UHGV virus genome: UHGV-0278151
Origin: a virus
Direction: 5' to 3' (one strand)
Length of the DNA: 20,723 bases
Position 1 is the stretch's first letter; each line of letters opens with the position of its first letter. The position numbers and the translations under genes were made by a program. The notes beneath the pieces were generated by a model that did no database searches, was not told where the DNA came from, and saw only the letters and a list, made by a program, of their open reading frames with translations. Below are positions 700-20,723 of this stretch, piece after piece.

Positions 700-3275
700 C
701 GTCCACCTCCGGAGAACAGGCCACCATCACGCATCTGTGTCTGAATTTCATCACGGGCACCCTTGCGGGCCATGTCATACACCGCCTTCAGAGCAGCCGG
801 ACCTATCTGCCCGTTCGTGCCGTCGTTGTTAATCACCACATGGTTATTCTGCTCAAACGTCCCGGACGCCTGCGACCGGCTGTCTGCCATGCTGCCCGGT
901 GTACCGACATAACCGCCGGTGGCATAGCCGCGCATCAGCCGGTAAAGATTCCCCACGCCAATCCGGCTGGTTGCCTCCTTCGTGAAGACAAATTCACCAC
1001 GGTGAACAATCCCCGCTGGCTCATATTTGCCGCCGGTTCCCGTAAATCCTCCGGTTGCAAAATGGAATTTCGCCGCAGCGGCCTGAATGGCTGTACCGCC
1101 TGACGCGGATGCGCCGCCACCAACAGCCCCGCCAATGGCGCTGCCGATACTCCCGACAATCCCCACCATTGCCTGCTTAAGCAGAATTTCTGTCATCATG
1201 GACAGCACGGAACGGGTGAAGCTGCGCCAGTTCTGCTCACTGCCGGTCAGCATCGCCGCCATATTCTGTGCAATACCATCAAAGGTCTGCGTGGCTGCAC
1301 TTTTTACCTGCGACATACTGTCCGTGGCGCTCTCTTCCCACTCACTCCAGCCGGACTTCAGGCCTGCCATCCAGCTCCCGCGAAGCTGGTCTTCAGCCGC
1401 CCAGGTCTTTTTCTGCTCTGACATGACGTTATTCAGCGCCAGCGGATTATCGCCATACTGTTCCTTCAGGCGCTGTTCCGTGGCTTCCCGTTCTGCCTGC
1501 CGGTCAGTCAGCCCCCGGCTTTTCGCATCAATGGCGGCCCGTTTTGCCCGTTGCTGCTGTGCGAATTTATCCGCCTGCTGCGCCAGCGCGTTCAGGCGCT
1601 CCTGATACGTAACCTTGTCGCCAAGTGCAGCCAGCTGGCGTTTGTACTCCAGCGTCTCATCTTTATGCGCCAGCAGGGATTTCTCCTGTGCAGACAGCTG
1701 GCGACGTTGCGCCGCCTCCTCCAGTACCGCGAACTGGCTCTCCGCCTTCCACAAATCCCGGCGCTGCTGGCTGATTTTCTCATTTGCTCCGGCATGCTTC
1801 TCCAGCGTCCGGAGTTCAGCCTGAAGCGTCAGCAGGGCAGCATGAGCACTGTCTTCCTGACGATCGCCCGCAGACACCTTCACGCCGGACTGTTTCGGCT
1901 TTTTCAGCGTCGCTTCATAATCCTTTTTCGCCGCCGCCATCAGCGTGTTGTAATCCGCCTGCAGGATTTTCCCGTCTTTCAGTGCCTTGTTCAGTTCTTC
2001 CTGACGGGCGGTATATTTCTCCAGCGGCGTCTGCAGCCGTTCGTAAGCCTTCTGCGCCTCTTCGGTATATTTCAGCCGTGATGCCTCAGACTCGGCCCAG
2101 TCCTTTGCTGCCATCTCTCTGGCCTTTTCAAGATCGGCCTGCAACGTGGCGGCTGAAAGCCCAAGTTGCGCATTCGCTCTGTCCTCCCATGCTCCCCGGA
2201 GATTGGCAAGAAATGCTGAGGTTTTACCGCGCCGGTGGCTCCGGCTCTGATACCACTGCCATTTTTTGTCCGCCTCATCAAAAGCCTTTTCTGCTTTCTC
2301 CAGCATTCCCTGGGCAGTGTCCGGGCGACCAATATCCAGCACCGAATCCCACATGGATTTGAATGCCCGTGCTGTCCTGTCTGCCCAGGTCTCCAGCGTG
2401 CCCATGTTCTCTTTCAGGCGGCGGGTCTGGTCATCAAACCCTTTCGTTGCGGCCTCGTTCGCCGCCTGCAATGCCCCGGCTTCATCTCCGGAACGCTGCA
2501 ACTGAGCAACATACGCAATCTGCTCCGCCGTCACGTTATGGAACTGACGTGCCATCGCTGTCAGTCCCGACGTCGGGTCTGTGGTCAGCTTCCCGAAGGC
2601 TTCAGCGACCTTGTCCACCTCCACGCCGGATGCAGAGGAGAAACGCGCCACACTCTGGCTGATCGCCTCAAACTGCTCACCACCACGCACACCGGCATTC
2701 ACCAGCGCCGTCAGTGACTCGCTGGTCTGGTTAAACGTCAGCCCTGCCGCCTGCCCGGCTCTGGACAGGACCAGCATACGATCTGCCGTCAGTCCCGCCT
2801 GATTGCCGGAAAGGACCAGCGTTTTGTTGAAATCGGACAGGGTTGAGTTGCCCTGATACCAGGCATACGCCAGCGCACCGGTCGCCACCGCCAGCGAGGT
2901 GGCCCCCACCATCGGCAGGGTGATCGCACCGGCAAGCCCCCTGAACATGGGGATCATCCCGCCGAAGGAGTCCTTAACCTGACCCCCCTGTTGCAGCAGG
3001 ATCAGCCACGGGCTTTGCCCGCCTGCAAGCTGCGTGGCCACGTCGGTGAACTGTGCAGGCAGCATACGCATGGCGGCTTTATACTGCCCGACGGAAATCC
3101 CCGCTTTCTGTGCAGCCAGCGCCTGTCGGCTCAGCGACTGTTCAACGACTGCCGCTGTTTTTTTCGCATCAGTTTCCGTACCGGAAAAATGACGCCTGAC
3201 TCTGGCCATCTGCTCGTCAAATCTGGCCGCATCCAGACTCAAATCAACGACCAGATCGCCTACCGGTTCAGCCAT
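696..3275 (-). CDS. H: Tail tape measure protein H
   Basis: 859 aa (lambda gpH is 853 aa). The N- and C-terminal thirds are nearly identical to lambda H as I recall it (MAEPVGDLVVDLSLDAARFDEQ... ...QTQMRDGGLFSGGGR). The start overlaps the T stop by 8 nt as in lambda. Confidence 0.95.
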   Translation of the reverse strand: MAEPVGDLVVDLSLDAARFDEQMARVRRHFSGTETDAKKTAAVVEQSLSRQALAAQKAGISVGQYKAAMRMLPAQFTDVATQLAGGQSPWLILLQQGGQVKDSFGGMIPMFRGLAGAITLPMVGATSLAVATGALAYAWYQGNSTLSDFNKTLVLSGNQAGLTADRMLVLSRAGQAAGLTFNQTSESLTALVNAGVRGGEQFEAISQSVARFSSASGVEVDKVAEAFGKLTTDPTSGLTAMARQFHNVTAEQIAYVAQLQRSGDEAGALQAANEAATKGFDDQTRRLKENMGTLETWADRTARAFKSMWDSVLDIGRPDTAQGMLEKAEKAFDEADKKWQWYQSRSHRRGKTSAFLANLRGAWEDRANAQLGLSAATLQADLEKAREMAAKDWAESEASRLKYTEEAQKAYERLQTPLEKYTARQEELNKALKDGKILQADYNTLMAAAKKDYEATLKKPKQSGVKVSAGDRQEDSAHAALLTLQAELRTLEKHAGANEKISQQRRDLWKAESQFAVLEEAAQRRQLSAQEKSLLAHKDETLEYKRQLAALGDKVTYQERLNALAQQADKFAQQQRAKRAAIDAKSRGLTDRQAEREATEQRLKEQYGDNPLALNNVMSEQKKTWAAEDQLRGSWMAGLKSGWSEWEESATDSMSQVKSAATQTFDGIAQNMAAMLTGSEQNWRSFTRSVLSMMTEILLKQAMVGIVGSIGSAIGGAVGGGASASGGTAIQAAAAKFHFATGGFTGTGGKYEPAGIVHRGEFVFTKEATSRIGVGNLYRLMRGYATGGYVGTPGSMADSRSQASGTFEQNNHVVINNDGTNGQIGPAALKAVYDMARKGARDEIQTQMRDGGLFSGGGR

Positions 3276-4106
3276 ACCGGACTCCTCCTGCGATCCCTTC
3301 TGATACTGTCATCAGCATTACGTCATCCTCCGTCATGTCCGCCACATCCGGGGAAGCGGGGATAACTTCATTCCCGTCCGGGCCAAAGCGGACACCTCCG
3401 GCAAGCCCTGCCGCTTTCTGCATCAGCACATCATCTTCAGGCTCTTCGTCAGCCTCGCGCCGGTTCAGCAGACTGAAATCCAGCGGATGCATATCCGGAT
3501 CGCTGAAAAACAGGCTGAGCACGGTGTACGTCAGCCCGGAAAAGTGCATATCCAGCAGAACATCATGAAAATAATGGGTACTGTAAAAGCGGTGCCAGTC
3601 GGCATACTCCGTGGATGACATCCCGGCAAGCATGGCACGCCAGTCGGGTCGCCCCATCTCACGCGCCAGTTTCAGGGCAAAACTCAGCTCACCATCGAAC
3701 ACTTTCCCGCAGAAACAGGCTCTGCAGGCCCGGCGTCCTCTGTCTGTTCAGGAGCATCATTCACCACAAACTCATACATACCGGACAGCCGGTACACCAC
3801 GTTTTCAGCATGAGAAATTGCCTCCGTGGGCCAGGTGGTAAGCACTTCCTGCTCAATCTGTTTAACGGCTTCATTCATGGAAGGCAGCTTTGTCTTCTTC
3901 GGATGGTTATGCCACAGGGACATCGCCACCAGAAACGCGCCGGTTCTGATGGCGTCTTCCACAGTAAACTTCCGGTTGCTGTCTGACTCCGCCTGTTCTG
4001 CCTGCCGTTTCATCAGGGCGAGATGCTCAATTCGCTGCAGGGCTGACAGTTCAGAAAGCGTGACGGTCACACCGTTATGTTCAAATGATTCGGTTTTCAG
4101 GAACAT
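3268..4106 (-). CDS. T: Tail assembly chaperone G-T fusion made by programmed -1 frameshift
   Basis: The T-frame ORF 3268..3702 (…FDGELSFALKLAREMGRPDWRAMLAGMSSTEYADWHRFY...) matches lambda gpT. It is entered from the G frame at G GGA AAG. Confidence 0.9.
3684..4106 (-). CDS. G: Tail assembly chaperone G
   Basis: 140 aa, MFLKTESFEHNGVTVTLSELSALQRIEHLALMKRQAEQAE..., matches lambda gpG and ends just after the slippery heptamer. Confidence 0.95.
   Translation of the reverse strand: MFLKTESFEHNGVTVTLSELSALQRIEHLALMKRQAEQAESDSNRKFTVEDAIRTGAFLVAMSLWHNHPKKTKLPSMNEAVKQIEQEVLTTWPTEAISHAENVVYRLSGMYEFVVNDAPEQTEDAGPAEPVSAGKCSMVS
3702..3708 (-). other. G/T -1 frameshift slippery heptamer GGGAAAG
   Basis: Plus strand ctttccc at 3702-3708 is GGGAAAG on the minus strand. 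The G frame reads GCG GGA AAG TGT; the -1 frame reads GGG AAA GTG TTC GAT GGT GAG, the start of the T sequence. Confidence 0.9.
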
Positions 4107-4121
4107 CGCTGACTCCCCGGA

Positions 4122-4862
4122 TTAACTGGCGGTGACGGTGATTTCTGCAACCGCAGCAAGTTCACCATTACCGGATACGACCGGAATGTTGACCTTGCCT
4201 GCAGCAACACCTTTCACGGTGATGGTCATACCACTGACCGACACGGTGGCTTTTGTTTTATCCGCAGACACCGCACGGAAGCTCTTGTCGGTTGCGCCTT
4301 CCGGCTGGAATGCCACGGTCAGCGTGGTGCTCTGCCCTTTCACCACCGAGGTGCTGGCAGGCGTCACAGTCATGCCGGTTGTCGCCGTCACCGTGCTGCG
4401 ATCTTCTGCCATCGACGGACGGCCCACGTTGGTGACTTTCACCGTGCGGGTGATCACTTCCTTCGCCGTCACCGCCTTACCGATACTGCTGACCCAGCCG
4501 CGGAACACATCGACCGTGCCGTTCGGGAAGCGGATTTTATAGGCTCGGGTATCCCCTTCATTAAACCACGCCAGCAGCGCCTGCTGCCCCTGCTCTCCGG
4601 GCATCCACGCCAGCGTGAAGCTGGTATCTCCGGCAGATTTCTGCCCCTGCCCGGTCGCAGTCCAGTCTGCATCTTCATCATCGAGATAGCTGTCGTCATA
4701 GGACTCAGCGGTCAGTTCGCCGGGCGTCAGGTCTTTAACTTTTGCCAGACGCGACCAGTCAACGTCTGAAAGCGGATTCGCATAAGGGTCACCGCTTCCC
4801 TTATAAACCCACAGGGTGGTCCCGGCACCTTTCACCGGCATTACAGGATTTGGTACAGGCAT
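4122..4862 (-). CDS. V: Major tail protein V (with C-terminal Ig-like domain)
   Basis: From the internal Met, [36 protein letters not shown]... (246 aa) matches lambda gpV. GAGGA lies 6 nt upstream of the ATG at 4862. The 10-codon extension in the track overlaps the U stop and is not lambda-like. Confidence 0.95.
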
Positions 4863-13103: not shown

Positions 13104-13623
13104 TCAGCAACCCCGGTATCAGTTCATCCAGCGCGGCTGCTTTGTTCATGGCTTTGATGATATCCCGTTTCAGGAAATCAATATGCCGGTTATCCAGCTC
13201 AGGAAAACGTCGCTGCACCGACAGAGGAATACCGTCGAGAATACTGGCAATTTCACCTGCGATCCGCGACAGCACGAAAGTACAGAATGCGGTTTCCACC
13301 ACTTCAGCGGAGTCTCTGGCATTTTTCAGCTCCTGGGCGTCAGCCTGCGCACGTGTAAGTCGATGGCGTTCGTACTCAATAGTCCCAGGCTGGAGATCTG
13401 CCTCGCTGGCCGCCCTGTAATCCTCAACCTCTTTACGGAGTTTTTCATTTTCGATATCAGCTTCCCTCTGCGCATACCACTGAATTGCCATGGCGGTATC
13501 AAATACAGATTCAACGCCCTTACCACCTCCGGAGACGCAAGGGAGTCCCTGAGACTGCCAGCGTTCAATCGTTCGCGGATCCACGTTGAAAATTTCGGCA
13601 AGTTTCTTTTTATTAACCTTCAT
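13078..13623 (-). CDS. Nu1: Terminase small subunit Nu1, chimeric (non-lambda N-terminal DNA-binding domain, lambda C-terminal part)
   Basis: [93 protein letters not shown]... (181 aa). The first 78 or so residues are only loosely lambda-like and recall phage 21 gp1. From ASEADLQPG onward it is essentially lambda Nu1. Confidence 0.9.
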
Positions 13624-13648
13624 GAAACAGTCACACAACAAATACAGA

Positions 13649-13760
13649 GTCCGACATGAAAGTGTCCGAAAATGACTTTTTCAGGCGTTTTCATGTCGGA
13701 CCTTTTACGGATTCGATATTAGAAAAAACAAATAGTTATGTTCGAGAAGTACCGACATGA
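13649..13760 (-). promoter_or_regulatory. cosB-like region: three CATGTCGG(A/T)C repeats, presumed small-terminase binding sites
   Basis: Plus strand has gtCCGACATGAa at 13649-13660, tTCATGTCGGacc at 13690-13702 (inverted) and gtaCCGACATGAt at 13749-13760. They lie between cosN and the Nu1 start, where lambda has R3-I1-R2-R1. The motif differs from the lambda CGTTTCC-type R sites. Confidence 0.7.
13726..13738 (+). promoter_or_regulatory. Possible IHF site (I1 analogue) between cosB repeats
   Basis: AAACAAATAGTTA follows an A-tract. It has one mismatch to WATCAANNNNTTR and sits between the outer and middle repeats, like lambda I1. Confidence 0.35.
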
Positions 13761-13799
13761 TTTTCCCCGGAAAATTTTCATAAATAGCGAAAACCCGCG

Positions 13800-13811
13800 C
13801 GCCTGCCGCCC
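13800..13811 (-). other. cosN cohesive-end 12-mer candidate (GGGCGGCAGGCG on the minus strand)
   Basis: The minus strand reads ACG GGGCGGCAGGCG CGCGGGTTTTCGCTATTTATGAAAATTTTCCGG. Both flanks are identical to the lambda left end as I remember it (ACG GGGCGGCGACCT CGCGGGTTTTCGCTATTTATGAAAATTTTCCGG). The 12-mer differs at 4 of its last 5 positions. Confidence 0.7.
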
Positions 13812-14164
13812 CGTGGAAGGCCTCCCCACCGGAAGGACCCACACAAATGAGAGCGTTTATCATTAACATTTGCAGATAAGATGACGTACATCATTGAAAC
13901 GCCATTCAGCCATATACCGGCAGCATTCGTAGTTGCACTCCGTAACTCTGCGACTAAGGTTAAAAACATGGCCCTCTTTTGCCACCGGCAAATCTTCAAT
14001 GGATTTCCCCTGCCGGTTTTTTATTTTCGTCGATGCATAACATTGCATTTACATCAATAGCGGCTATTGTCATTAGTATGTTGCATCAATGCATGGGTGG
14101 TATTGGCGGTCTTCGCCGGCCGCTTCTGTGTAGCTGCTCCCTGTGACCGGTTTTTTATTTCTCA

Positions 14165-14203
14165 CATTACAGCAACCCCTTAGAGTGAAGGGCTGCTGTA
14201 ATG
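14165..14203. other. Long imperfect hairpin (10 bp + 5 bp stem, 6-nt loop) with no adjacent U-tract
   Basis: cattacagca-ac-ccctt agagtg aaggg-c-tgctgtaatg. Neither strand has a T-run immediately 3' of it, so it is not a canonical intrinsic terminator. Confidence 0.6.
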
Positions 14204-14228
14204 CCTGTTACTCAGTAACTACCGCACC

Positions 14229-14537
14229 TTACGGTAATTTCATGAAGGCAAATACCGGACAGCCCGGATGACGAGCATCTTCTGTTGCTTCCAGCATTGA
14301 CTCACCAAACCACTCCGTCGTGGCGCGACCGTCAGCTGCTTTGTAGTGGATCAAGTACTGGTTTTCGCCATCCGCATACTGCGCACGGGCTTTAACCTCA
14401 CCCCATTCATCACTGATGCGCATCTCCACCAGTTGAGACAACTCAAACTTAAACGGAGCAGCATCAGCACCAATTACAATCGGTTTGTTTTCTGTTTTTC
14501 CATCATCGTCTCCTGATATCGAAGCCCGTCGCCGCAC
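14229..14537 (-). CDS. Hypothetical protein, start unresolved (probable frameshift relative to its own SD and ATG)
   Basis: The open frame ...KTENKPIVIGADAAPFKFELSQLVEMRISDEWGEVKARAQYADGENQYLIHYKAADGRATTEWFGESMLEATEDARHPGCPVFAFMKLP has no family I recognise. The only strong SD (AGGAGA, 14509-14514) serves ATG ATG at 14506-14501, which is in a different frame and stops after 10 codons. Confidence 0.5.
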   Translation of the reverse strand: MRRRASISGDDDGKTENKPIVIGADAAPFKFELSQLVEMRISDEWGEVKARAQYADGENQYLIHYKAADGRATTEWFGESMLEATEDARHPGCPVFAFMKLP

Positions 14538-14677
14538 CGGGCACTGATCAACATTTGAGTATTCGCGGCGACAGAAAGAATTTATTTTATTGAATAGCCA
14601 CTAACACAGAATTTCATGCTTTCCGGACGCTGGCGCGCCCTTCATTTTTCAGCAAAATATTCCGCTATTACAGATGA

Positions 14678-14860
14678 TCAGTTCTGCAGACACTGCCGAA
14701 CGCCATCGATAAGCTGGCAGACCTGAGAAGCCGTATCGAAAAGCTGGCGCGCCTTATCCAGGCTGACGCATCCCACCAATAAAAAAGGCACCAGTATCGC
14801 TACCAGTGCCCATTTCGCCGCCGTTCGCGGCATTCTGTGTGTCCAGTGTTTTCTGCTCAT
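14678..14860 (-). CDS. Small lipoprotein at the end of the lysis cassette (60 aa; spanin-slot protein of unknown type)
   Basis: MSRKHWTHRMPRTAAKWALVAILVPFLLVGCVSLDKARQLFDTASQVCQLIDGVRQCLQN. It has a basic N-region, a hydrophobic core and a lipobox L-V-G-C. AGGTG lies 5 nt upstream of the ATG at 14860. The mature peptide is about 29 aa with 3 Cys. Confidence 0.7.
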   Translation of the reverse strand: MSRKHWTHRMPRTAAKWALVAILVPFLLVGCVSLDKARQLFDTASQVCQLIDGVRQCLQN

Positions 14861-14874
14861 AACACACCTGGTTA

Positions 14875-15255
14875 TCAGCGTTTCAACTGAAAGTGAGGCC
14901 CGTCTTTCAGTGTTTTCCAGTCCCCACCCCATTCGATGGCAGTTCCCAGCTCTGCGGCAGCCTGCTTAAATGCCTGCGCGATTTTCTCGTACAGAGGCCA
15001 GTCCCATGACACCTGGCTGCCAATGTAGGCCACAACATCCACCGCATCACCTGTAAGGTGGCGGCTGTTCATGGTCTGGCTTTTCCCTGCCGCTACCAGC
15101 TGTTTCTGGCGATACTTACTGCGCAGACCTTCCGTGATACCAAAATCAACCTCCGTCAGCTCCAGCGCACGGCGAACGACAGCAACCAGCTGTGGTTTGA
15201 CGCCCTCCAGATTTTTTTCACTGCGACGGCTGAATCTGAATTTACCCGGCATCAT
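14875..15255 (-). CDS. Endolysin, peptidase M15 family (VanY / L-alanyl-D-glutamate peptidase-like)
   Basis: MMPGKFRFSRRSEKNLEGVKPQLVAVVRRALELTEVDFGITEGLRSKYRQKQLV...SRHLTGDAVDV...DGPHFQL carries the H-x6-D and C-terminal H zinc-ligand pattern of M15 peptidases. GAGG lies 5 nt upstream of the ATG at 15255, and the gene follows the holin genes. Confidence 0.8.
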   Translation of the reverse strand: MMPGKFRFSRRSEKNLEGVKPQLVAVVRRALELTEVDFGITEGLRSKYRQKQLVAAGKSQTMNSRHLTGDAVDVVAYIGSQVSWDWPLYEKIAQAFKQAAAELGTAIEWGGDWKTLKDGPHFQLKR

Positions 15256-15257
15256 AT

Positions 15258-15533
15258 TCACCTCAACAATGGAAAGATTTTTGTGACGTTCCCGCGTGCG
15301 CGTATCACCAGCACGCAGAACAGCAGGTTAAAAAACACTTCCAGCCAGCCCGTTGCTAACGGGCGACCACACAGATAGCTGAGGGGCGCAAAGGCATACA
15401 GCAGCATCAGCAGCCAGGCCAGCCATGACATCAGCGGTTTGTGTCTGGAGTCACGACGACGATAAAAAAAGAGCGTCAGCACGATAACCGTGCATAACGC
15501 CACATTCAGTAATCCGGGAAGGTTACTTAACAT
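15258..15533 (-). CDS. Holin-like small membrane protein (about 3 TM, 91 aa)
   Basis: MLSNLPGLLNVALCTVIVLTLFFYRRRDSRHKPLMSWLAWLLMLLYAFAPLSYLCGRPLATGWLEVFFNLLFCVLVIRARGNVTKIFPLLR has three hydrophobic segments and a charged C-terminus. A GGAGGAGG SD is present, and the gene is translationally coupled to its neighbours directly upstream of the endolysin. Confidence 0.7.
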   Translation of the reverse strand: MLSNLPGLLNVALCTVIVLTLFFYRRRDSRHKPLMSWLAWLLMLLYAFAPLSYLCGRPLATGWLEVFFNLLFCVLVIRARGNVTKIFPLLR

Positions 15534-15915
15534 TGCCGCCTCCTCCGCCCCGCAGGCGCGAGAACAGGCCGGACACCAGTGATGCGATATCCTGCTGGTG
15601 GATGAACGACAGAATCTTCACCGACACCACCGCCACCAGCACCGCACACAGTGCATCCGCAGATGTACCGTCATAACCTGTTTTTGATGCAATCCAGGCT
15701 GACAGTACACGCGCCCCCAGTACACCAACAATGAACGACACCAGAAAATGTGCCGCCACACGCCAGGCTGAAATCTTCTGCGGCATCGTTGCCACAAACA
15801 ACGCCCCGGCGAACGCACCAAACACAATCCCGAAATCCGTTCCGGTAAACAGCCCGAATACCGTCGCCCCGCCGAGCGCCGCAGCCGTGCCGGAACCGGA
15901 TAAGGGTTCAGACAT
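15523..15915 (-). CDS. Holin/antiholin-like membrane protein (130 aa, Gly/Ala-rich TM segments)
   Basis: MSEPLSGSGTAAALGGATVFGLFTGTDFGIVFGAFAGALFVATMPQKISAWRVAAHFLVSFIVGVLGARVLSAWIASKTGY... AGGAGA lies 6 nt upstream of the ATG at 15915. It is the first gene of the lysis cassette and resembles LydA-type holins in composition. Confidence 0.65.
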   Translation of the reverse strand: MSEPLSGSGTAAALGGATVFGLFTGTDFGIVFGAFAGALFVATMPQKISAWRVAAHFLVSFIVGVLGARVLSAWIASKTGYDGTSADALCAVLVAVVSVKILSFIHQQDIASLVSGLFSRLRGGGGGNVK

Positions 15916-15930
15916 ACTTTTTCTCCTGTA

Positions 15931-15955
15931 AATAAAAAAGGGCCACCAACGGCCC
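15931..15955 (-). terminator. Rho-independent terminator between the TerB module and the holin
   Basis: The minus strand reads GGGCC gttggt GGCCC TTTTTTATTT, and a second hairpin (AAAGGCA-8nt-TGCCTTT, 15972-15993) lies just upstream. Confidence 0.8.
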
Positions 15956-16002
15956 ATAAAAACACCCCATCAAAGGCACCCGCAGATGCCTTTTGTGTGG
16001 TG

Positions 16003-16155
16003 TTATTCAGATTTACGCAGTAAAGGCCGGAGCACGACCAGCGCCATCGCCACCAGCACACCATCTGCCAGCACCGACATCAGCCGTCCGGTGAAATCCA
16101 CCACCACTACCAGAAACAGCAGGATGGCAGCCAGCACAAGGCGCGCACTTTTCAC
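16003..16155 (-). CDS. Small two-TM membrane protein (50 aa) translationally coupled to the TerB-like gene
   Basis: It is not in the ORF track (under 60 aa). The GTG at 16155 overlaps the TerB-like stop (CTGTGA), with GGAG 8 nt upstream. The product is VKSARLVLAAILLFLVVVVDFTGRLMSVLADGVLVAMALVVLRPLLRKSE*, with two clear hydrophobic helices and a basic tail. Confidence 0.55.
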   Translation of the reverse strand: MKSARLVLAAILLFLVVVVDFTGRLMSVLADGVLVAMALVVLRPLLRKSE

Positions 16156-16577
16156 AGGTACTGCTCCAGCGGCAACTGCAACGCCTGTGCAATTTTCTTG
16201 AGCTGCACTTCTTCATCAGGACCGATGCCGTCCTGGTCAGCAATATCCAGACACAGACACAGCACGTTAACTGCATCATCAGTACCGGCAACATCAGCCA
16301 GCTGACGAAGGGCTTCGGCATTGGCAGAACGCGGTGACGCTTCATAACGGGCGCGGATATTTGCACTCATTTGTGCAATCTCACCCGAGAACGGCGCAAA
16401 GGCAGGAAGTGCTGCAATGGTTTTCTCCAGCACAGCGATTTCTTTCGCATCACAGGTGCCGTCGGCGAATGCTATGGAATACGCACCCCAGACGGTCGCC
16501 TCCACTGCATCGCGGTTCTCCATCTTCTTCACTTCGGTAATGGCCTTGCGGGTTTTCTTTTTGAAAATACCAAACAT
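16152..16577 (-). CDS. TerB-like (tellurite-resistance TerB fold) protein
   Basis: 141 aa, MFGIFKKKTRKAITEV...GAYSIAFADGTCDAKEIAVLEKTI...LCLCLDIADQDGIGPDEEVQLKKIAQALQLPLEQYL. It has the two A-x-ADG-x-x-D/E-x-x-E repeats and the N-terminal MSFF/MFGIF-K motif of TerB. An AAGGA SD precedes the ATG at 16577. Confidence 0.7.
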   Translation of the reverse strand: MFGIFKKKTRKAITEVKKMENRDAVEATVWGAYSIAFADGTCDAKEIAVLEKTIAALPAFAPFSGEIAQMSANIRARYEASPRSANAEALRQLADVAGTDDAVNVLCLCLDIADQDGIGPDEEVQLKKIAQALQLPLEQYL

Positions 16578-16596
16578 CGTGACTTTTCCTTTTAGT

Positions 16597-16681
16597 GGGT
16601 GAGCCTGCGCCCGGGGGTGACCAGCCCACAGAGAAAGTCACACTGACCATCCCGTAAGCTCACCCCTGAAAGGCTCTGTGG
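16597..16681 (-). promoter_or_regulatory. Structured 5' leader of the TerB-like gene (two interleaved 8-bp GC-rich helices)
   Basis: Helix A pairs 16626-16633 (ccacagag) with 16674-16681 (ctctgtgg). Helix B pairs 16597-16604 (gggtgagc) with 16658-16665 (gctcaccc). The arms interleave (B-left, A-left, B-right, A-right), so they form either a pseudoknot or mutually exclusive folds. They end about 10 nt from the SD. Confidence 0.5.
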
Positions 16682-16788
16682 TTTTTGATGTGCGCCGGGC
16701 GTGGCGCAAAGAAATGAAATAAGACTTACCTGAAATTAAGGTTAATCTGAGGATTTAAACCATTTTTAAAGCTTAGTAATATCAACTC

Positions 16789-16867
16789 GTCTCCTGAAGG
16801 AGACAGATACTTATGATTCTTCATGGACTTTGTCCCGCGGCGTTAATCCGACGGCCGCGCTTTTTTT
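16789..16867 (+). ncRNA. Candidate plus-strand small RNA (about 80 nt) antisense to the late-operon direction
   Basis: TTTAAA (16754-16759), a 17-nt spacer and TAATAT (16777-16782) form a promoter-like signal. The predicted transcript has a 5' hairpin GTCTCC-tgaa-GGAGAC (16789-16804) and a terminator CGCGGC-12nt-GCCGCG-C-TTTTTTT (16836-16867). Confidence 0.45.
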
Positions 16868-16902
16868 GCGCCATATTCATCGCTAACTTACATGGCATTG
16901 CC

Positions 16903-16937
16903 ACACGGGCATTATCAGTGTCCGTGTTTCTTTTTTT
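16903..16937 (+). terminator. Second plus-strand intrinsic terminator
   Basis: ACACGG-13nt-CCGTGT followed by TTCTTTTTTT. Confidence 0.6.
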
Positions 16938-16949
16938 AGGATTCAGAAT

Positions 16950-16974
16950 AAAAAAAACCGCCCGGTGGAGGCGG
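16950..16974 (-). terminator. Minus-strand intrinsic terminator downstream of the tRNA-like gene
   Basis: The minus strand reads CCGCC-tccaccg-GGCGG followed by TTTTTTTT. It is convergent with the two plus-strand terminators. Confidence 0.75.
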
Positions 16975-17242
16975 TAAAGGATGTATTTCCAGGTTTTGCT
17001 TAATATATGAATAATCTCAATGTCATGGTGTTATTTACAACACCAGAATGATGCATCACCGACCCTGCCAGGAAATATAAAATCTCCGCCGAAAATGCAC
17101 CATTCTGCTGCCGTAAAAAAATCAGCACTGCGGCTACACCCGACCCCAAATCATAGCCAGAGAACAGAATGTTTTTAACAATCTACCCCCACGTAATAAA
17201 AAAATACGTCAGTGCCGTCACTATAAGGCGTATTTCAAATGT

Positions 17243-17318
<76 letters not shown>

Positions 17319-17446
17319 TTTTATTGCCACATCCGTAACAACAGTCGACAGGAATAATATACATTCAGAATCAGCCGCCTTAGCTAATTGTGCAACCATC
17401 TGCTCTTTGCAAGTGCACTTAACGTCCTGCGCCACTTTTCAGGCAT

Positions 17447-17469
17447 AAAAAAACCCGCTCAGTGGCGGG
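17447..17469 (-). terminator. Intrinsic terminator (copy A of a 25-bp repeated terminator)
   Basis: The minus strand reads CCCGC-cactga-GCGGG-TTTTTTT. A second 8-bp hairpin (AAGGCACC-attaa-GGTGCCTT, 17490-17510) lies just upstream on the same transcript. Confidence 0.75.
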
Positions 17470-17482
17470 ATCTTTTGATAAA

Positions 17483-17594
17483 AACGACAAAGGCACCATT
17501 AAGGTGCCTTTTACACAGGGGCAGCAGGCTTGTCATCACCTCATCGCTACTCCTGGCTTCCTGTTCGGAAGTCTCACAAGTCCCATCAGGGTAC
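17483..17594 (-). ncRNA. Candidate small RNA (about 85-145 nt) from the TTGACA/GATACT promoter to the tandem terminators
   Basis: The predicted start is near 17594. The transcript has an internal hairpin CTTCC-gaaca-GGAAG, then the 17510-17490 hairpin with a U-rich tail, then the 17469-17447 terminator. There is no convincing ORF, only ATG AGG TGA and a 25-codon frame with a poor SD. Confidence 0.4.
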
Positions 17595-17600
17595 AGCGAC

Positions 17601-17629
17601 AGTATCAGCCAACACACTATGTGTGTCAA
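17601..17629 (-). promoter_or_regulatory. Strong sigma70-type promoter TTGACA-17-GATACT
   Basis: The minus strand reads TATA TTGACA cacatagtgtgttggct GATACT gtcgctg. The hexamers are those of lambda pL. The spacer contains the inverted repeat ACACAC-tat-GTGTGT. A perfect palindrome ATCGAATTCGAT (17641-17652) and a 10-bp hairpin lie upstream. Confidence 0.6.
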
Positions 17630-17664
17630 TATAAATTCATATCGAATTCGATAATCGTTTTCGA

Positions 17665-18066
17665 TTATCGATACAGATAAGCCATCCCTATCCCGTGCAA
17701 TACCGCCCGTTTAATATTCTCAAACTCATCTTCCGCAATCATAGGAACAATATAATTTCGTCCCTCCCAGGTTCTGGTTTTTATGCGATCCAGTCGGCTC
17801 AATGAAACCGTCATCAACATGTCACATTTTACCCAGCAAGTAATATGCTCATTACCAGGTATGGGGTTTTCTGATAACTCATGATGGCAATCTCTGCGAG
17901 GGAGCGGTTCAGTAGTGCTTATTGGTACCACTGTTACCAATTGATTGTTGTGCCTGTTTCTGGACACGACCACCACTGGCCTGACCTTGACTATTTCCGG
18001 AACAACCATTCCCCGAAAATCACACATTAAAACAGAACGAACAGACGGCTGATACTTTAATACCAT
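17665..18066 (-). CDS. PemK/MazF-fold toxin-like protein (YifN-like), with no adjacent antitoxin gene
   Basis: 133 aa from the ATG at 18066: MVLKYQPSVRSVLMCDFRGMVVPEIVKVRPVVVVSRNRHNNQLVTVVPISTTEPLPRRDCHHEL...WVKCDMLMTVSLSRLDRIK. This is the MazF/PemK signature (G/S-x-L-x-x-DF ... E-x-x-K-x-RP-x-VV-S ... V-x-VVP-x-ST ... D-x-x-x-TV). The SD is weak (AAGAGA). Confidence 0.7.
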   Translation of the reverse strand: MVLKYQPSVRSVLMCDFRGMVVPEIVKVRPVVVVSRNRHNNQLVTVVPISTTEPLPRRDCHHELSENPIPGNEHITCWVKCDMLMTVSLSRLDRIKTRTWEGRNYIVPMIAEDEFENIKRAVLHGIGMAYLYR

Positions 18067-19317: not shown

Positions 19318-20364
19318 TTACCCGAGCACGCCGGTTGCAAAGGCGCGATCAAGAAAACGAAAAATTAAATCAATCTGGGAACCATGCTTTTCTTCGAACG
19401 CCAGCGGATCCGCATGAAGCTCGTTGTGATGCTCCCGACACAGCGGTAGCGTGAAAATATCGTGGGATTTTGTCCCTATTCCGCCCTGACCATGACCAAT
19501 CAGGTGATGGGGATCGTCGGCTGGCTTACCACAACACGCACACGGCTGTGTCTTTACCCAGCGCGTATATTTCTCATTTACCCAACGGCGACGTTTAGGT
19601 CGCTTCATGAAAGATTCCGGAGACTCCGGATCAACAGCAATGCTGACCACCGTCTTTTCCTGTGGTGGGTTTTGCTGGTGGGCGTGAGGCAGCGGCGCAA
19701 GATTTTTTGTGCGCTGCTTCAGTATGCTGATGGCGGTCTGCTCTCCCGGTACGATGTCGCTTTCGCGGTACACCGAGCGAATTTTTTCCGCACGTAACCC
19801 CAGAGAACGACGTAATACTACCTCCGGTAGTGCGTCCGCCACCTGATTGCAGACAGCCCACCAGGATAATTCAGCCAGCGATAATTCCCGCTCCTGTGTG
19901 CCATTCATTGCATGGCGCATGACGTCAATCATCCATGCTGACAGGTTTTGGTGAGCAAGTTGCTCAAGTGATTCGGAGGACTGGTCACGCAACTGGTTGT
20001 CACAGTGCCAGCACAACACCATCGCGCCAGCACCGTAACGATGTATGACGGTTTCGCTGTGATGGTAATCACCATGAGGCCACTGGCAGGATTTAATATG
20101 GCGCAACAGCCAGTCAGACAATGCACCAGCACCACCAGCAGCACGAATTACCCGTGCGTTACTGAAAAACGGCAGCAATGTTTTGTCTTCCACCAGCGGC
20201 TGGCGAGCGGCAGGAACGACCCCGGACGGCAGATTACGCATGCTTTTCGGTTCCGGCTCCACCAGTACCCGGGTATTGTGGAATACCGGCATGGATTCAC
20301 GGCCCGGCTTAACGACCACCAGCCCAAGTTCCGGTACCAGAACAGGTCGAAGTAATACCCGCAC
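19318..20364 (-). CDS. DUF968 family protein (YdfU-like) with C-terminal HNH-like zinc motif
   Basis: 348 aa, starting at the GTG at 20364 with GGAGG 4 nt upstream. The C-terminus CACCGKPADDPHHLIGHGQGGIGTKSHDIFTLPLCREHHNELH has a CxxC...HH...CxxHHxxxH pattern. The size and the position before rusA/Q match Qin YdfU. Confidence 0.7.
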   Translation of the reverse strand: MRVLLRPVLVPELGLVVVKPGRESMPVFHNTRVLVEPEPKSMRNLPSGVVPAARQPLVEDKTLLPFFSNARVIRAAGGAGALSDWLLRHIKSCQWPHGDYHHSETVIHRYGAGAMVLCWHCDNQLRDQSSESLEQLAHQNLSAWMIDVMRHAMNGTQERELSLAELSWWAVCNQVADALPEVVLRRSLGLRAEKIRSVYRESDIVPGEQTAISILKQRTKNLAPLPHAHQQNPPQEKTVVSIAVDPESPESFMKRPKRRRWVNEKYTRWVKTQPCACCGKPADDPHHLIGHGQGGIGTKSHDIFTLPLCREHHNELHADPLAFEEKHGSQIDLIFRFLDRAFATGVLG

Positions 20365-20365
20365 G

Positions 20366-20723
20366 TTACCTCCAGATGCGTTGCTGGAATGTACGGGACG
20401 GACGCGGTGGGCGTTCGGAGTAAGGCAATCTGACTGAGATTATCCAGTGACGGTAGTCGAGACTAAGGGCTTTCTTAACCTCGTATCCGGAGCTTAAGTT
20501 GCACGCCATTGGGTGGGTTAAGCATAAATGTAGGTCGTTGTCGATAACTTCTTTTTTTGCCCAGCGATGGATGCTGCCGTCAATGTTTCCGGCATCCACA
20601 TCACCAGGCCAGAGAGCGTAGGCCAGTTCGTCATCCAGTGTTTTCCATGTCTGCTTGTATTCGCGATGAATGGCAGCAATGACCGGGCTGATTTTTCCTG
20701 TTGAATTTTCAGTGTACTGTTGA
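20366..20723 (-). CDS. Hypothetical nin-region protein, C-terminal part (gene continues beyond the window)
   Basis: The minus-strand frame is open from the window edge: QQYTENSTGKISPVIAAIHREYKQTWKTLDDELAYALWPGDVDAGNIDGSIHRWAKKEVIDNDLHL...RTFQQRIWR*. The stop lies 1 nt before the DUF968 start. The ATG in the track at 20599 is internal. I do not recognise the family. Confidence 0.5.
   Translation of the reverse strand, partial: QQYTENSTGKISPVIAAIHREYKQTWKTLDDELAYALWPGDVDAGNIDGSIHRWAKKEVIDNDLHLCLTHPMACNLSSGYEVKKALSLDYRHWIISVRLPYSERPPRPSRTFQQRIWR

What the first reader, a model, noticed from the sequence alone, without database searches (positions are those of the whole stretch)
14678..15915. 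Non-lambda lysis cassette with no recognisable Rz/Rz1 pair, only a 60-aa lipoprotein resembling a bacteriocin-release protein
The cassette has a 130-aa Gly/Ala-rich membrane protein, a 91-aa 3-TM holin-like protein, an M15 metallopeptidase endolysin, and then a 60-aa lipoprotein (lipobox LLVGC, mature part about 29 aa with 3 Cys and no Pro-rich region). No ORF of 60 aa or more for an i-spanin exists on the minus strand downstream or embedded, and the lipoprotein lacks the C-terminal TM segment of a unimolecular spanin. Its layout (long signal peptide, LLVGC lipobox, mature peptide under 30 aa) resembles colicin lysis/BRP lipoproteins more than o-spanins. It could be an alternative route to outer-membrane disruption.
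Basis: partly seen in the sequence, partly recalled or inferred. Interest (0 to 1): 0.5.

Follow-up and report, generated by a model that had tools for sequence, protein, structure and literature searches.

The report
Lysis lipoprotein without an inner-membrane partner
A prophage lysis gene cluster in E. coli ends with a tiny, conserved outer-membrane lipoprotein sitting where the two-part "spanin" normally sits, with no inner-membrane partner gene anywhere, so it may break the outer membrane in a way not yet described.

Summary
On the minus strand lie a 130-aa Phage_holin_8 protein, a 91-aa 3-TM holin, an M15 endolysin and, 14 nt later, a 60-aa lipoprotein. Its lipobox is LVGC31 and its mature part is a 30-aa Pro-free amphipathic helix with two further invariant Cys. 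The window is E. coli SE11. No i-spanin-like gene exists in the window, in the 49-kb prophage region, or in about 85 related loci carrying an intact copy.

The gene is real: 54% of its variants are synonymous against 24% expected, and it occurs in 314 of 5,426 complete E. coli genomes. In every lineage examined it follows the endolysin, directly or after short inserted genes. This holds across two holin sets, two endolysin families, and lambdoid, phiP27-like and Mu-like phages. It occupies the slot Rz/Rz1 holds elsewhere.

Its phiP27 orthologue is already catalogued as an o-spanin (Kongari 2018). The paired "i-spanin" is a TTG-start ORF antisense to a real gene, inside an insertion found in 4 of 87 loci, so it is probably an artefact.

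The resemblance to colicin release proteins is generic: only the signal peptide aligns, equally well to Rz1 and Lpp.

Best reading: a late lysis protein acting on the outer membrane without a phage-encoded partner. The mechanism is inferred, not shown.

The parts
15523..15915 (-). 130-aa Gly/Ala-rich membrane protein with four hydrophobic segments (Phage_holin_8). It is the first gene of the cassette and is a holin or holin regulator. It has no sizeable periplasmic domain, so it is not an i-spanin.
   Evidence: Pfam PF16931 at E 6e-24. PHROG 198 holin at E 3e-42. Hydropathy was run on the L092 homologue, which has the same layout.
15258..15533 (-). 91-aa 3-TM holin (Phage_holin_3_7). It overlaps the upstream gene by 11 nt.
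   Evidence: Pfam PF05449 at E 6e-22. PHROG 217 holin at E 1.5e-38.
14875..15255 (-). Soluble M15 metallopeptidase endolysin (L-Ala-D-Glu endopeptidase type) with no signal or SAR segment. PGAP starts it at 15252; the longest ORF starts with GTG at 15261.
   Evidence: Pfam Peptidase_M15_4 at E 1.6e-12. PHROG 465 endolysin at E 3e-75. PGAP calls it 'M15 family metallopeptidase'.
14678..14860 (-). 60-aa prolipoprotein, the terminal gene of the cassette. It starts 14 nt after the endolysin stop and is preceded by AGGTG. The signal peptide is 14860..14771: the n-region MSRKHWTHRMPRTAAK has net charge +5, and the h-region is WALVAILVPFLLVG. The lipobox Cys31 codon is 14770..14768. The mature 30 aa (14770..14681) form an amphipathic helix with invariant C48 and C57. 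The +2 residue is Val, which predicts sorting to the outer membrane.
   Evidence: PHROG 7528 at E 3e-37; conservation; AF2 helix 12-59, pLDDT 70-77; muH 0.55; coding frame; lipobox rule, no second TMD.
14776..14811 (-). Intrinsic-terminator-like hairpin inside the signal-peptide coding region, on the mRNA sense strand: GGGCACUGGUA-GCGA-UACUGGUGCCU followed by UUUUUAUUGG. It is almost invariant at the nucleotide level across genera.
   Evidence: scan; invariant block even in Lelliottia; dG -19.2 kcal/mol, z -3.1; identical codons 34/40 inside the block against 18/50 outside; 90% of cells paired, covariation not significant.
15940..15955 (-). Terminator-like hairpin (GGGCCGTTGGTGGCCC plus a T-run) between the upstream DUF3927 gene and the first holin gene. 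It marks the upstream edge of the cassette.

Best explanation
The 60-aa gene is the third, outer-membrane step of this prophage's lysis programme, and it works without a phage-encoded inner-membrane subunit.

Proposed sequence of events:
1. It is transcribed late, from the Q-antiterminated late operon, together with the holins and the endolysin.
2. The prolipoprotein is exported, acylated at Cys31, cleaved by signal peptidase II and carried by the Lol system to the inner leaflet of the outer membrane.
3. Its 30-residue mature part is an amphipathic helix with a broad hydrophobic face, held only 2-3 residues from the lipid anchor. It carries two invariant Cys that can form intermolecular disulfides. 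It accumulates as oligomers lying on or in the inner leaflet.
4. This pre-weakens the outer membrane. Once the holin fires and the endolysin removes the murein, the outer membrane can no longer hold the turgor and ruptures.

Shown here:
- The gene is real and under purifying selection.
- It has lipoprotein and outer-membrane sorting signals.
- It is invariably linked to the endolysin.
- It occupies the spanin slot.
- No i-spanin is present.

Inferred only:
- Late co-expression.
- Outer-membrane localisation.
- Oligomerisation.
- The membrane-weakening action itself.
For: Position:
- In the window the gene starts 14 nt after the endolysin stop, behind an AGGTG.
- In distant relatives it overlaps or abuts the endolysin, from -20 to +10 nt.
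- Linkage persists while everything else is exchanged: holins (hol8 plus hol3_7, or Phage_holin_3_1), endolysins (M15_4 or GH108 plus PG_binding_3), and phage type (lambdoid with Q, phiP27-like, Mu-like).

Slot equivalence:
- The small TM ORFs that precede it in about 40% of loci lie between R and Rz in lambdoid phages.
- Phage P88 has a homologous M15 endolysin followed by a DUF2570 (Rz-like) protein.

No spanin:
- None in the window, in 49 kb of the SE11 prophage, or in about 85 loci with an intact copy.
- Pinto 2021 found Rz in 277 of 279 Stx phages; the two Stx2e (phiP27-type) cluster C phages carry the metallopeptidase endolysin instead of the usual one.
- The one phage that has both Rz/Rz1 and this gene (GER2) carries it as a pseudogene with a stop codon.

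Expression:
- No promoter-like site lies between Q and the gene.
- Several terminator-like hairpins lie along the operon, as expected for Q-dependent transcription.

Protein features:
- Lipobox, with +2 never Asp.
- Helix by AF2.
- muH of 0.55-0.62, above Rz1, BRP and Lpp.
- Two invariant Cys.

Selection and spread:
- 54% synonymous against 24% expected.
- Present in 5.8% of complete E. coli genomes, up to 7 copies per genome.
Against: - No experiment exists for any member of the family.
[quoted passage not shown] Rz1 alone is inactive without Rz (established knowledge).
- The peptide is not cationic (net charge 0), unlike the one known spanin-free disruptor.
- Spanin-less phages can still lyse in shaken culture, so the absence of a spanin does not prove this gene replaces one.
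- The strong conservation of the signal-peptide n-region is not explained by this model.
- The mutual-exclusion argument rests on one pseudogene (GER2).
- AF2 confidence is only moderate, and a monomer model says nothing about oligomers.
Confidence: 0.5

Rival explanations
1. It is an ordinary o-spanin of a two-component spanin, as catalogued for phiP27. Its i-spanin has simply not been recognised: it could be unlinked, very short, non-canonical, or supplied by another membrane protein of the cassette or of the host (for example a periplasm-spanning protein such as TolA or TonB).
For: - Kongari 2018 lists phiP27 as a 'separated' two-component spanin. The i-spanin is at 20348..20542 (64 aa). 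The o-spanin is at 20706..20861 (51 aa), which is the orthologue of this gene from Met10.
- The C-terminal Cys pair recalls the T4 o-spanin PseT.2 (PMC6139136).
- Small TM ORFs precede the gene in about 40% of loci.
- In two distant lineages a 144-aa protein with an N-terminal TMD lies 0.25-1.5 kb downstream.
Against: The phiP27 'i-spanin':
- It has a TTG start and marginal hydrophobicity (1.63).
- It has no PHROG or Pfam hit.
- It is antisense to a 90-aa ORF that matches PHROG 36812 at E 5e-20.
- It lies in a 490-nt insertion present in 4 of 87 loci and absent here.

Other candidate partners:
- The small TM ORFs are tail-anchored, with at most 14 periplasmic residues. They also occur upstream of genuine Rz in lambdoid phages, so they are not Rz substitutes.
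- No candidate partner is conserved across contexts.
- None is in the window or the 49-kb prophage.

Geometry: 30 mature residues cannot reach far across the periplasm.

A host partner cannot be excluded with these tools.
Confidence: 0.12
2. It works like a colicin lysis or bacteriocin-release protein. A small lipoprotein, together with its stable signal peptide, perturbs the envelope and activates the outer-membrane phospholipase OMPLA. The resulting lysophospholipids permeabilise the outer membrane.
For: - Similar size class: 60-aa precursor and 30-aa mature part.
- The signal peptide, including its n-region (M-x-R-K-H-W-T-H-R-x-P-R), is more conserved than the mature part, with synonymous variation in the n-region. 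This suggests the signal peptide itself has a function, as reported for the CloDF13 BRP (my own knowledge, not tested here).
Against: - No match to Pfam Lysis_col even at E 10.
- hhalign with a BRP aligns only the signal peptide and lipobox, no better than Rz1 or Lpp.
- BRP mature parts have low amphipathicity (muH 0.24) and no extra Cys. This family has muH 0.55-0.62 and two invariant Cys.
- The genetic context is a phage late operon, not an SOS-driven colicin operon.
Confidence: 0.12
3. It is not an outer-membrane disruptor. It is an accessory late or moron lipoprotein, such as a lysis-timing modulator, a superinfection-exclusion or receptor-masking protein like Cor or Llp, or a Bor-like envelope protein. 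These phages simply lack a dedicated third lysis step.
For: - The interval between lysis genes and terminase is a known moron site (lambda bor; my own knowledge).
- The interval between endolysin and lipoprotein is an insertion hot spot in relatives: LT-II toxin, KilA-N, orf93 and the reverse 90-aa gene.
- About 13% of Gram-negative phages had no spanin in Kongari 2018, and 31 genomes had a lipoprotein without a linked i-spanin.
Against: - It is on the same strand as the late genes and abuts or overlaps the endolysin stop in many lineages.
- There is no promoter-like site before it.
- It travels with lysis genes, not with tail or receptor-binding modules, across lambdoid, phiP27-like and Mu-like phages.
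- No PADLOC hit and no Pfam Bor or other hit.
- An internal terminator-like hairpin would block expression from non-antiterminated transcripts.
Confidence: 0.18
4. One gene supplies both ends of a minimal spanin. The uncleaved prolipoprotein stays in the inner membrane as a type II (N-in, C-out) protein anchored by its unusually conserved signal peptide. It pairs through the C-terminal helix and Cys48/Cys57 with mature copies anchored in the outer membrane.
For: - The n-region and the lipobox are both nearly invariant across subfamilies. A dual role for the signal peptide would explain this.
- In a continuous helix C48 and C57 face opposite sides, which favours intermolecular links.
Against: - Purely inferential.
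- Two 30-residue segments (about 9 nm as helices) fall short of the usual periplasmic width.
- A consensus LVGC lipobox predicts efficient processing.
- There is no precedent.
Confidence: 0.08

Closest known systems
o-spanins of two-component spanins (lambda Rz1; T4 PseT.2; the 'PhiP27' singleton o-spanin of Kongari et al. 2018, PMC6139136)
   Same: - A small outer-membrane lipoprotein encoded as the last gene of a lysis cassette after the endolysin.
- Conserved periplasmic Cys near the C-terminus (T4 PseT.2 has a C-x10-C pair).
- The phiP27 orthologue is itself the catalogued o-spanin.
   Different: - No i-spanin gene upstream, overlapping or anywhere nearby. The one catalogued for phiP27 is probably an antisense artefact.
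- The mature part is only 30 aa, helical and Pro-free, whereas Rz1 has 40 aa with 10 Pro and is unstructured.
- No sequence similarity to any established o-spanin family.
Unimolecular spanin (phage T1 gp11)
   Same: A single gene with an N-terminal outer-membrane lipoprotein signal at the end of a lysis cassette, needing no second spanin gene.
   Different: - No C-terminal transmembrane domain.
- No roughly 100-aa beta-rich periplasmic domain.
- It cannot bridge the two membranes by itself.
Colicin lysis proteins / bacteriocin release proteins (Pfam Lysis_col; CloDF13 BRP, ColE1 Kil). Entericidin B, a small bacteriolytic lipoprotein of E. coli, is a related case known to me but not tested here.
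   Same: - A very small lipoprotein (mature part about 30 aa) whose production is linked to envelope permeabilisation or lysis.
- The signal peptide is possibly functional in its own right.
   Different: - No sequence relationship beyond the generic lipobox.
- Strongly amphipathic helix and two invariant Cys, both absent from BRPs.
- Encoded in a phage late operon next to a holin and an endolysin, not in a colicin operon.
Disruptin (phage phiKT gp28), the only characterised spanin-independent outer-membrane disruptor (bioRxiv 10.1101/515445)
   Same: A short amphipathic helical peptide encoded by a spanin-less phage that would act directly on the outer membrane after murein degradation.
   Different: Disruptin is cationic and is not a lipoprotein. 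This protein has net charge 0 and would be delivered and anchored by lipidation through the Lol pathway.

Membership tests
Two-component spanin, o-spanin subunit | N-terminal lipoprotein signal with lipobox, and a +2 residue compatible with outer-membrane sorting | tested here: met
   AILVPFLLVGC31 passes the lipobox rule, with R3 and K4 in the n-region. The +2 residue is V, A, T, G, S or E across the family and never D.
Two-component spanin, o-spanin subunit | A cognate i-spanin gene (type II inner-membrane protein with a periplasmic coiled-coil domain) immediately upstream, overlapping or embedding the o-spanin gene | tested here: not met
   There is no such ORF in six frames of the window, in the 49-kb prophage, or in about 85 related loci with an intact copy. 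The catalogued phiP27 i-spanin lies in an insertion absent here and is antisense to a PHROG-matching gene.
Two-component spanin, o-spanin subunit | Sequence membership of an established o-spanin family | tested here: not met
   No Pfam or NCBIfam hit. The only PHROG hit is 7528, 'unknown function'. hhalign with lambda Rz1 aligns only the signal peptide. It is listed only as a singleton in Kongari 2018.
Two-component spanin, o-spanin subunit | Periplasmic Cys able to form intermolecular disulfides | tested here: inconclusive
   C48 and the second Cys (C57/C58) are invariant. Whether they form inter- or intramolecular bonds cannot be told from sequence.
Two-component spanin, o-spanin subunit | Complements a lambda Rz/Rz1 lysis defect together with its partner | not testable with these tools
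   This needs the pRE transactivation assay in a lambda Rz-am Rz1-am lysogen, as described in PMC12894885.
Unimolecular spanin (T1 gp11 type) | C-terminal transmembrane domain in addition to the N-terminal lipoprotein signal | tested here: not met
   The best 17-aa hydropathy window in the mature part scores 0.22, against 2.73 for the signal peptide.
Colicin lysis protein / BRP (Pfam Lysis_col) | Sequence match to the family | tested here: not met
   hmmscan against Pfam at E up to 10 gave no hit for the full protein, the mature peptide or the Lelliottia homologue. hhalign with the CloDF13 BRP covers signal-peptide residues only.
Colicin lysis protein / BRP (Pfam Lysis_col) | Small lipoprotein with a mature part of about 27-35 aa | tested here: met
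   60-aa precursor and 30-aa mature part.
Colicin lysis protein / BRP (Pfam Lysis_col) | Last gene of an SOS-regulated colicin operon; action depends on OMPLA | tested here: not met
   The context is a chromosomal lambdoid prophage late operon downstream of Q, holins and endolysin. OMPLA dependence is not testable here.
Disruptin (phiKT gp28 type) | Cationic amphipathic peptide without a lipoprotein signal | tested here: not met
   The mature part is amphipathic (muH 0.55) but has net charge 0, and it carries a lipoprotein signal.
Moron or exclusion lipoproteins (Bor, Cor, Llp) | Own promoter or expression in the lysogen, linkage to tail or receptor genes, and sequence membership | tested here: not met
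   There is no promoter-like site upstream. The gene abuts the endolysin and travels with lysis genes across three phage types. There is no Pfam or PADLOC hit. Expression itself was not measured.

The most novel reading that the evidence does not exclude
A 30-residue, lipid-anchored amphipathic helix delivered by the Lol pathway is sufficient for the outer-membrane step of phage lysis. That would make it a third class of outer-membrane disruptor, after spanins and the cationic disruptin. It might use its unusually conserved signal peptide as a second functional part, either as a stable peptide or as an inner-membrane-anchored pro-form.
Probability: 0.35. Interest if true: 0.8.

Novelty: new variant of a known kind. 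Interest (0 to 1): 0.58.

Why it matters
[quoted passage not shown] The only characterised exception is a cationic peptide.

Kongari 2018 left 31 genomes with "a lipoprotein but no linked i-spanin" unresolved. This family gives that class a clean and abundant exemplar in E. coli:
- It sits in a lambdoid prophage with lambda-type late regulation.
- It is present in about 6% of complete E. coli genomes.
- It is directly testable with the standard lambda Rz-am Rz1-am complementation assay.

The work also corrects a catalogue entry, the phiP27 i-spanin. That entry gave the shortest combined periplasmic length, 62 residues, in the spanin survey.

If the lipoprotein acts alone, it is a 30-residue outer-membrane-breaching module. 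That would be of interest for understanding outer-membrane mechanics, toxin release from Stx2e and LT-II phages that carry this cassette, and engineered lysis systems.

Tried and rejected
- Six-frame scan for i-spanin-like ORFs in the window and in 87 loci. Only out-of-frame shadows, terminase, the Stx2e B subunit and the LT-II A subunit turned up.
- The catalogued phiP27 i-spanin was rejected as antisense to a PHROG-matching gene and as lying in a rare insertion.
- The small TM ORFs next to the gene in relatives were considered as partners and rejected. They are tail-anchored, they also occur upstream of true Rz, and they are absent here.
- A 144-aa protein with an N-terminal TMD lies near the gene in two distant lineages. 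It is not conserved and not in the window.
- Homology to Lpp, Rz1 and BRP is confined to the signal peptide.
- A profile search of 1.84 billion representatives gave only 21 clusters, all the same small family, with no bridge to a known family.
- AF2, run twice, gave a single helix at moderate confidence. No fold search was attempted because a lone helix is uninformative.
- Covariation test of the internal hairpin: pairing is conserved but covariation is not significant.
- PADLOC gave no hits.
- Literature searches found no experimental work on this lipoprotein or on the phiP27 lysis cassette. Summer 2007 and Recktenwald & Schmidt 2002 are not held.
Full report
**What is there**

The window is part of the E. 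coli SE11 chromosome (100% match). It lies in a lambdoid prophage integrated next to rspB/ynfA, which has an integrase, a Q antiterminator, lambda-type Nu1/A terminase, head and tail genes.

On the minus strand, downstream of Q, the order is:
- a MazF-family toxin gene;
- a TerB-like gene and a DUF3927 gene;
- the cassette of the finding.

The cassette consists of four genes:
- a 130-aa Phage_holin_8 protein (15915..15523);
- a 91-aa Phage_holin_3_7 3-TM holin (15533..15258);
- a soluble Peptidase_M15_4 endolysin (15255..14875);
- 14 nt later, behind an AGGTG, a 60-aa ORF (14860..14678).

Next come a 102-aa ORF without a TMD (PHROG 1935, function unknown) and the terminase. The closest isolated phage is the Stx2e phage phiP27, at about 92% nucleotide identity.

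**The lipoprotein**

The sequence is MSRKHWTHRMPRTAAKWALVAILVPFLLVGC31VSLDKARQLFDTASQVC48QLIDGVRQC57LQN.
- It passes a lipobox rule and has a single hydrophobic segment, the signal peptide. There is no C-terminal TMD.
- The +2 residue is never Asp in any homologue, so sorting to the outer membrane is expected.
- AlphaFold predicts one helix through residues 12-59, with pLDDT 70 using 20 sequences and 77 using 26.
- The mature 30 residues are Pro-free with net charge 0. They contain an 18-residue stretch with a hydrophobic moment of 0.55. That is higher than lambda Rz1 (0.37), a colicin release protein (0.24) or the start of Lpp (0.41).

The ORF is a real gene:
- It matches PHROG 7528 over its full length at E 3e-37, function unknown.
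- It has 159 homologous clusters in the 5.8-billion-protein collection.
- Among 52 distinct nucleotide versions, 54% of variant alleles are synonymous in this frame, against 24% expected at random and 18-21% in the other two frames.
- It is present in 314 of 5,426 complete E. coli genomes, with up to 7 copies per genome. PGAP calls it 'hypothetical protein'.

An exhaustive profile search found only 21 clusters at 50% identity. The members that carry an organism name come from Enterobacteriaceae and Yersinia: Escherichia, Salmonella, Citrobacter, Cronobacter, Yersinia, Enterobacter and Lelliottia.

Two subfamilies share these features:
- the lipobox;
- Cys48;
- a second Cys 9 or 10 residues later;
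- an unusual basic n-region, M-x-R-K/R-H-W-T-H-R-x-P-R.

**No i-spanin**

- A six-frame scan using every start codon found no plausible type II membrane protein in the 20.7-kb window.
- tblastn with Rz, and with every candidate partner seen in relatives, found nothing in the window or in 49 kb of the prophage.
- Across 87 related loci, Rz homologues occur in only two lambdoid phages fetched for comparison.
- PhiR12_2 has Rz/Rz1 but no copy of the lipoprotein gene.
- GER2 has Rz/Rz1 plus a copy of the lipoprotein gene that carries a stop codon.
- Pinto et al. 2021 found Rz in 277 of 279 Stx phages. The two Stx2e phages of cluster C are set apart by a metallopeptidase endolysin and a classical holin.

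**The catalogue entry**

Kongari et al. 2018 list phiP27 as a 'separated' two-component spanin. It has the shortest combined periplasmic length in their survey, 62 residues. Their supplement gives the i-spanin at 20348..20542 (64 aa) and the o-spanin at 20706..20861 (51 aa).

The o-spanin is the orthologue of the present gene, started at Met10. Met10 is not conserved, whereas Met1 and the following residues are.

The 'i-spanin' is doubtful for several reasons:
- It is a TTG-start ORF of marginal hydrophobicity.
- It has no family match.
- It lies antisense to a 90-aa ORF that matches PHROG 36812 end to end at E 5e-20.
- It sits in a 490-nt insertion between endolysin and lipoprotein. That insertion is present in only 4 of 87 loci and absent from the window.

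I conclude it is an antisense artefact and that the phiP27 family has a lipoprotein but no i-spanin. The same paper notes 31 genomes with a lipoprotein and no linked i-spanin as an unresolved class.

**Why it is a lysis gene**

Linkage to the endolysin survives exchange of everything else.
- In about 40 of 85 loci with an intact copy the gene directly follows an M15 endolysin, as it does here.
- In others the endolysin is a GH108 plus PG_binding_3 enzyme.
- In the distant subfamily the gene overlaps or abuts the endolysin, from -20 to +10 nt. This holds in cassettes with a Phage_holin_3_1 holin and in a Mu-like phage (GemA, Mor, Portal_Mu).

In about 40% of loci one or two small tail-anchored TM ORFs (PHROGs 1115/4493 and 4906) precede it. 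In lambdoid phages the same ORFs lie between R and Rz. In the Peduoviridae phage P88, a related M15 endolysin is followed by a DUF2570 protein, a family I know as Rz-like. The lipoprotein therefore sits in the spanin slot.

There is no promoter-like site between the presumed late promoter region and the gene, and the operon is studded with terminator-like hairpins: 16 found against 4.8 ± 2.6 expected. This fits Q-dependent late transcription. These points argue against a Bor-, Cor- or Llp-type moron. PADLOC has no hit.

**The colicin-release-protein idea**

- Pfam Lysis_col does not match even at E 10.
- Profile comparison with a CloDF13 BRP, lambda Rz1 and Lpp gives the same weak result for all three (probability 49-54%). 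In each case only the signal peptide and lipobox align. 'LLVGC' is therefore generic.
- The amphipathic helix and the invariant Cys pair are not BRP features.
- One BRP-like trait remains. The signal peptide, including its n-region, is more conserved than the mature part. The n-region codons vary synonymously, so the constraint is on the peptide. I could not explain this.

**Mechanism**

My best reading (confidence 0.5) has four steps:
1. The gene is expressed late together with the holins and the endolysin.
2. The protein is lipidated and Lol-sorted to the inner leaflet of the outer membrane.
3. The short-tethered amphipathic helix accumulates there, probably as disulfide-linked oligomers, and weakens the membrane.
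4. The outer membrane fails once the murein is gone.

What is shown is the anatomy, conservation, linkage, slot equivalence and absence of a partner. Localisation, oligomerisation and the membrane effect are inferred.

The rivals are:
- an unrecognised or host-supplied inner-membrane partner (0.12);
- a BRP-like, OMPLA-dependent action (0.12);
- an accessory or moron role (0.18);
- a dual-form 'self-spanin' in which the uncleaved pro-form is the inner-membrane subunit (0.08).

**An embedded RNA element**

Codons 17-27 of the signal peptide encode a hairpin: an 11-bp stem and a GNRA loop, followed by a U-run. Its predicted free energy is -19.2 kcal/mol, with z = -3.1.

This 31-nt block is almost invariant even in the Lelliottia homologue, whose flanks are much more divergent. 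The only change there keeps a GNRA loop. In five distant homologues, codons for identical residues are themselves identical in 34 of 40 cases inside the block and 18 of 50 outside. The pooled sequences are not independent.

Pairing is kept in 90% of cells, but compensatory changes are too few for significance. The hairpin is absent from the Mu-like member, a phage type that I recall does not use Q-type antitermination.

It looks like an intrinsic terminator or attenuator inside the gene. It partly explains why the h-region of the signal peptide is so conserved.

**Verdict**

- The gene is best filed as an orphan, o-spanin-like lysis lipoprotein, a new variant of a known kind.
- There is a realistic chance (about 0.35) that it represents a new, partner-free way of breaching the outer membrane.
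- It is directly testable in E. coli with existing lambda tools.

Noticed in passing
window 14776..14811 (minus strand), inside the lipoprotein gene: An intrinsic-terminator-like hairpin (11-bp stem, GCGA loop, U-run) is encoded in the signal-peptide h-region. It is almost invariant at the nucleotide level across genera, with suppressed synonymous change. It is absent in a Mu-like relative. Covariation is not significant.
   Followed up: partly
L001 (phiP27 NC_003356) 3877..4071 plus strand against 3861..4133 minus strand: The i-spanin catalogued for phiP27 in Kongari 2018 is a TTG-start ORF antisense to a 90-aa gene matching PHROG 36812. It lies in a 490-nt insertion found in 4 of 87 loci. 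It is probably a mis-call. The RefSeq record also annotates the wrong frame (L32) over the lipoprotein gene.
   Followed up: yes
window 14813..14860 (codons 1-16 of the lipoprotein): The signal-peptide n-region M-x-R-K-H-W-T-H-R-x-P-R (net charge +5) is conserved across both subfamilies as strongly as the lipobox. Its codons vary synonymously, so selection acts on the peptide. This is unusual for a signal peptide and remains unexplained.
   Followed up: partly
L043 3826..3999; L057 3662..3844 and 3862..3996; L086 2501..2829; L087 1630..1782: Small tail-anchored membrane ORFs (PHROGs 1115/4493 and 4906, function unknown) sit immediately upstream of the lipoprotein in about 40% of relatives. In lambdoid phages they sit between lysozyme R and Rz. 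They are a recurrent, uncharacterised component of enterobacterial lysis cassettes and are absent from this window.
   Followed up: partly
L087 (Escherichia phage GER2, MG710528) about 2990..3170: In a phage that has Rz/Rz1, the lipoprotein homologue downstream of Rz is a pseudogene (stop codon in 'KAR*LFG'). This fits redundancy with a spanin, but it is a single case.
   Followed up: partly
window 13600..17700: Terminator-like hairpins are enriched: 16 found against 4.8 ± 2.6 in shuffles. They include sites at 17511, 17469, 16975 and 15955 on the minus strand that bracket the TerB/DUF3927 pair. A promoter-like site lies at 17629..17601 downstream of Q. The layout looks like a pR'/tR'-type late region with insulated morons.
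   Followed up: no
window 16003..16577 (minus strand): A TerB-family gene (141 aa) and a DUF3927/TciB-like 50-aa two-TM gene lie directly upstream of the holins. They are present in only a subset of related loci and are likely a moron pair.
   Followed up: no
window 17254..17311 (minus strand) and 17665..18066 (minus strand): Rfam finds a truncated tRNA (model positions 8-63 of 71) that ARAGORN does not call. Next to it PGAP annotates a lone PemK/MazF-family toxin gene between Q and the lysis region.
   Followed up: no
L047 and L051 1675..2820; L079 (-2318..-2055 relative to the lipoprotein start): In relatives the same cassette carries toxin cargo. Genes resembling the A and B subunits of an LT-II-type enterotoxin (recognised by eye, not searched) lie between the holins and the endolysin. 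A gene resembling the Stx2e B subunit lies upstream of the holins.
   Followed up: no
L089 4450..5310: In a distant relative the lipoprotein gene is followed by a 286-aa alpha/beta-hydrolase (Abhydrolase, Peptidase_S15 and DLH hits) before the tail genes. This is an esterase-like gene at the end of a Gram-negative lysis cassette.
   Followed up: no
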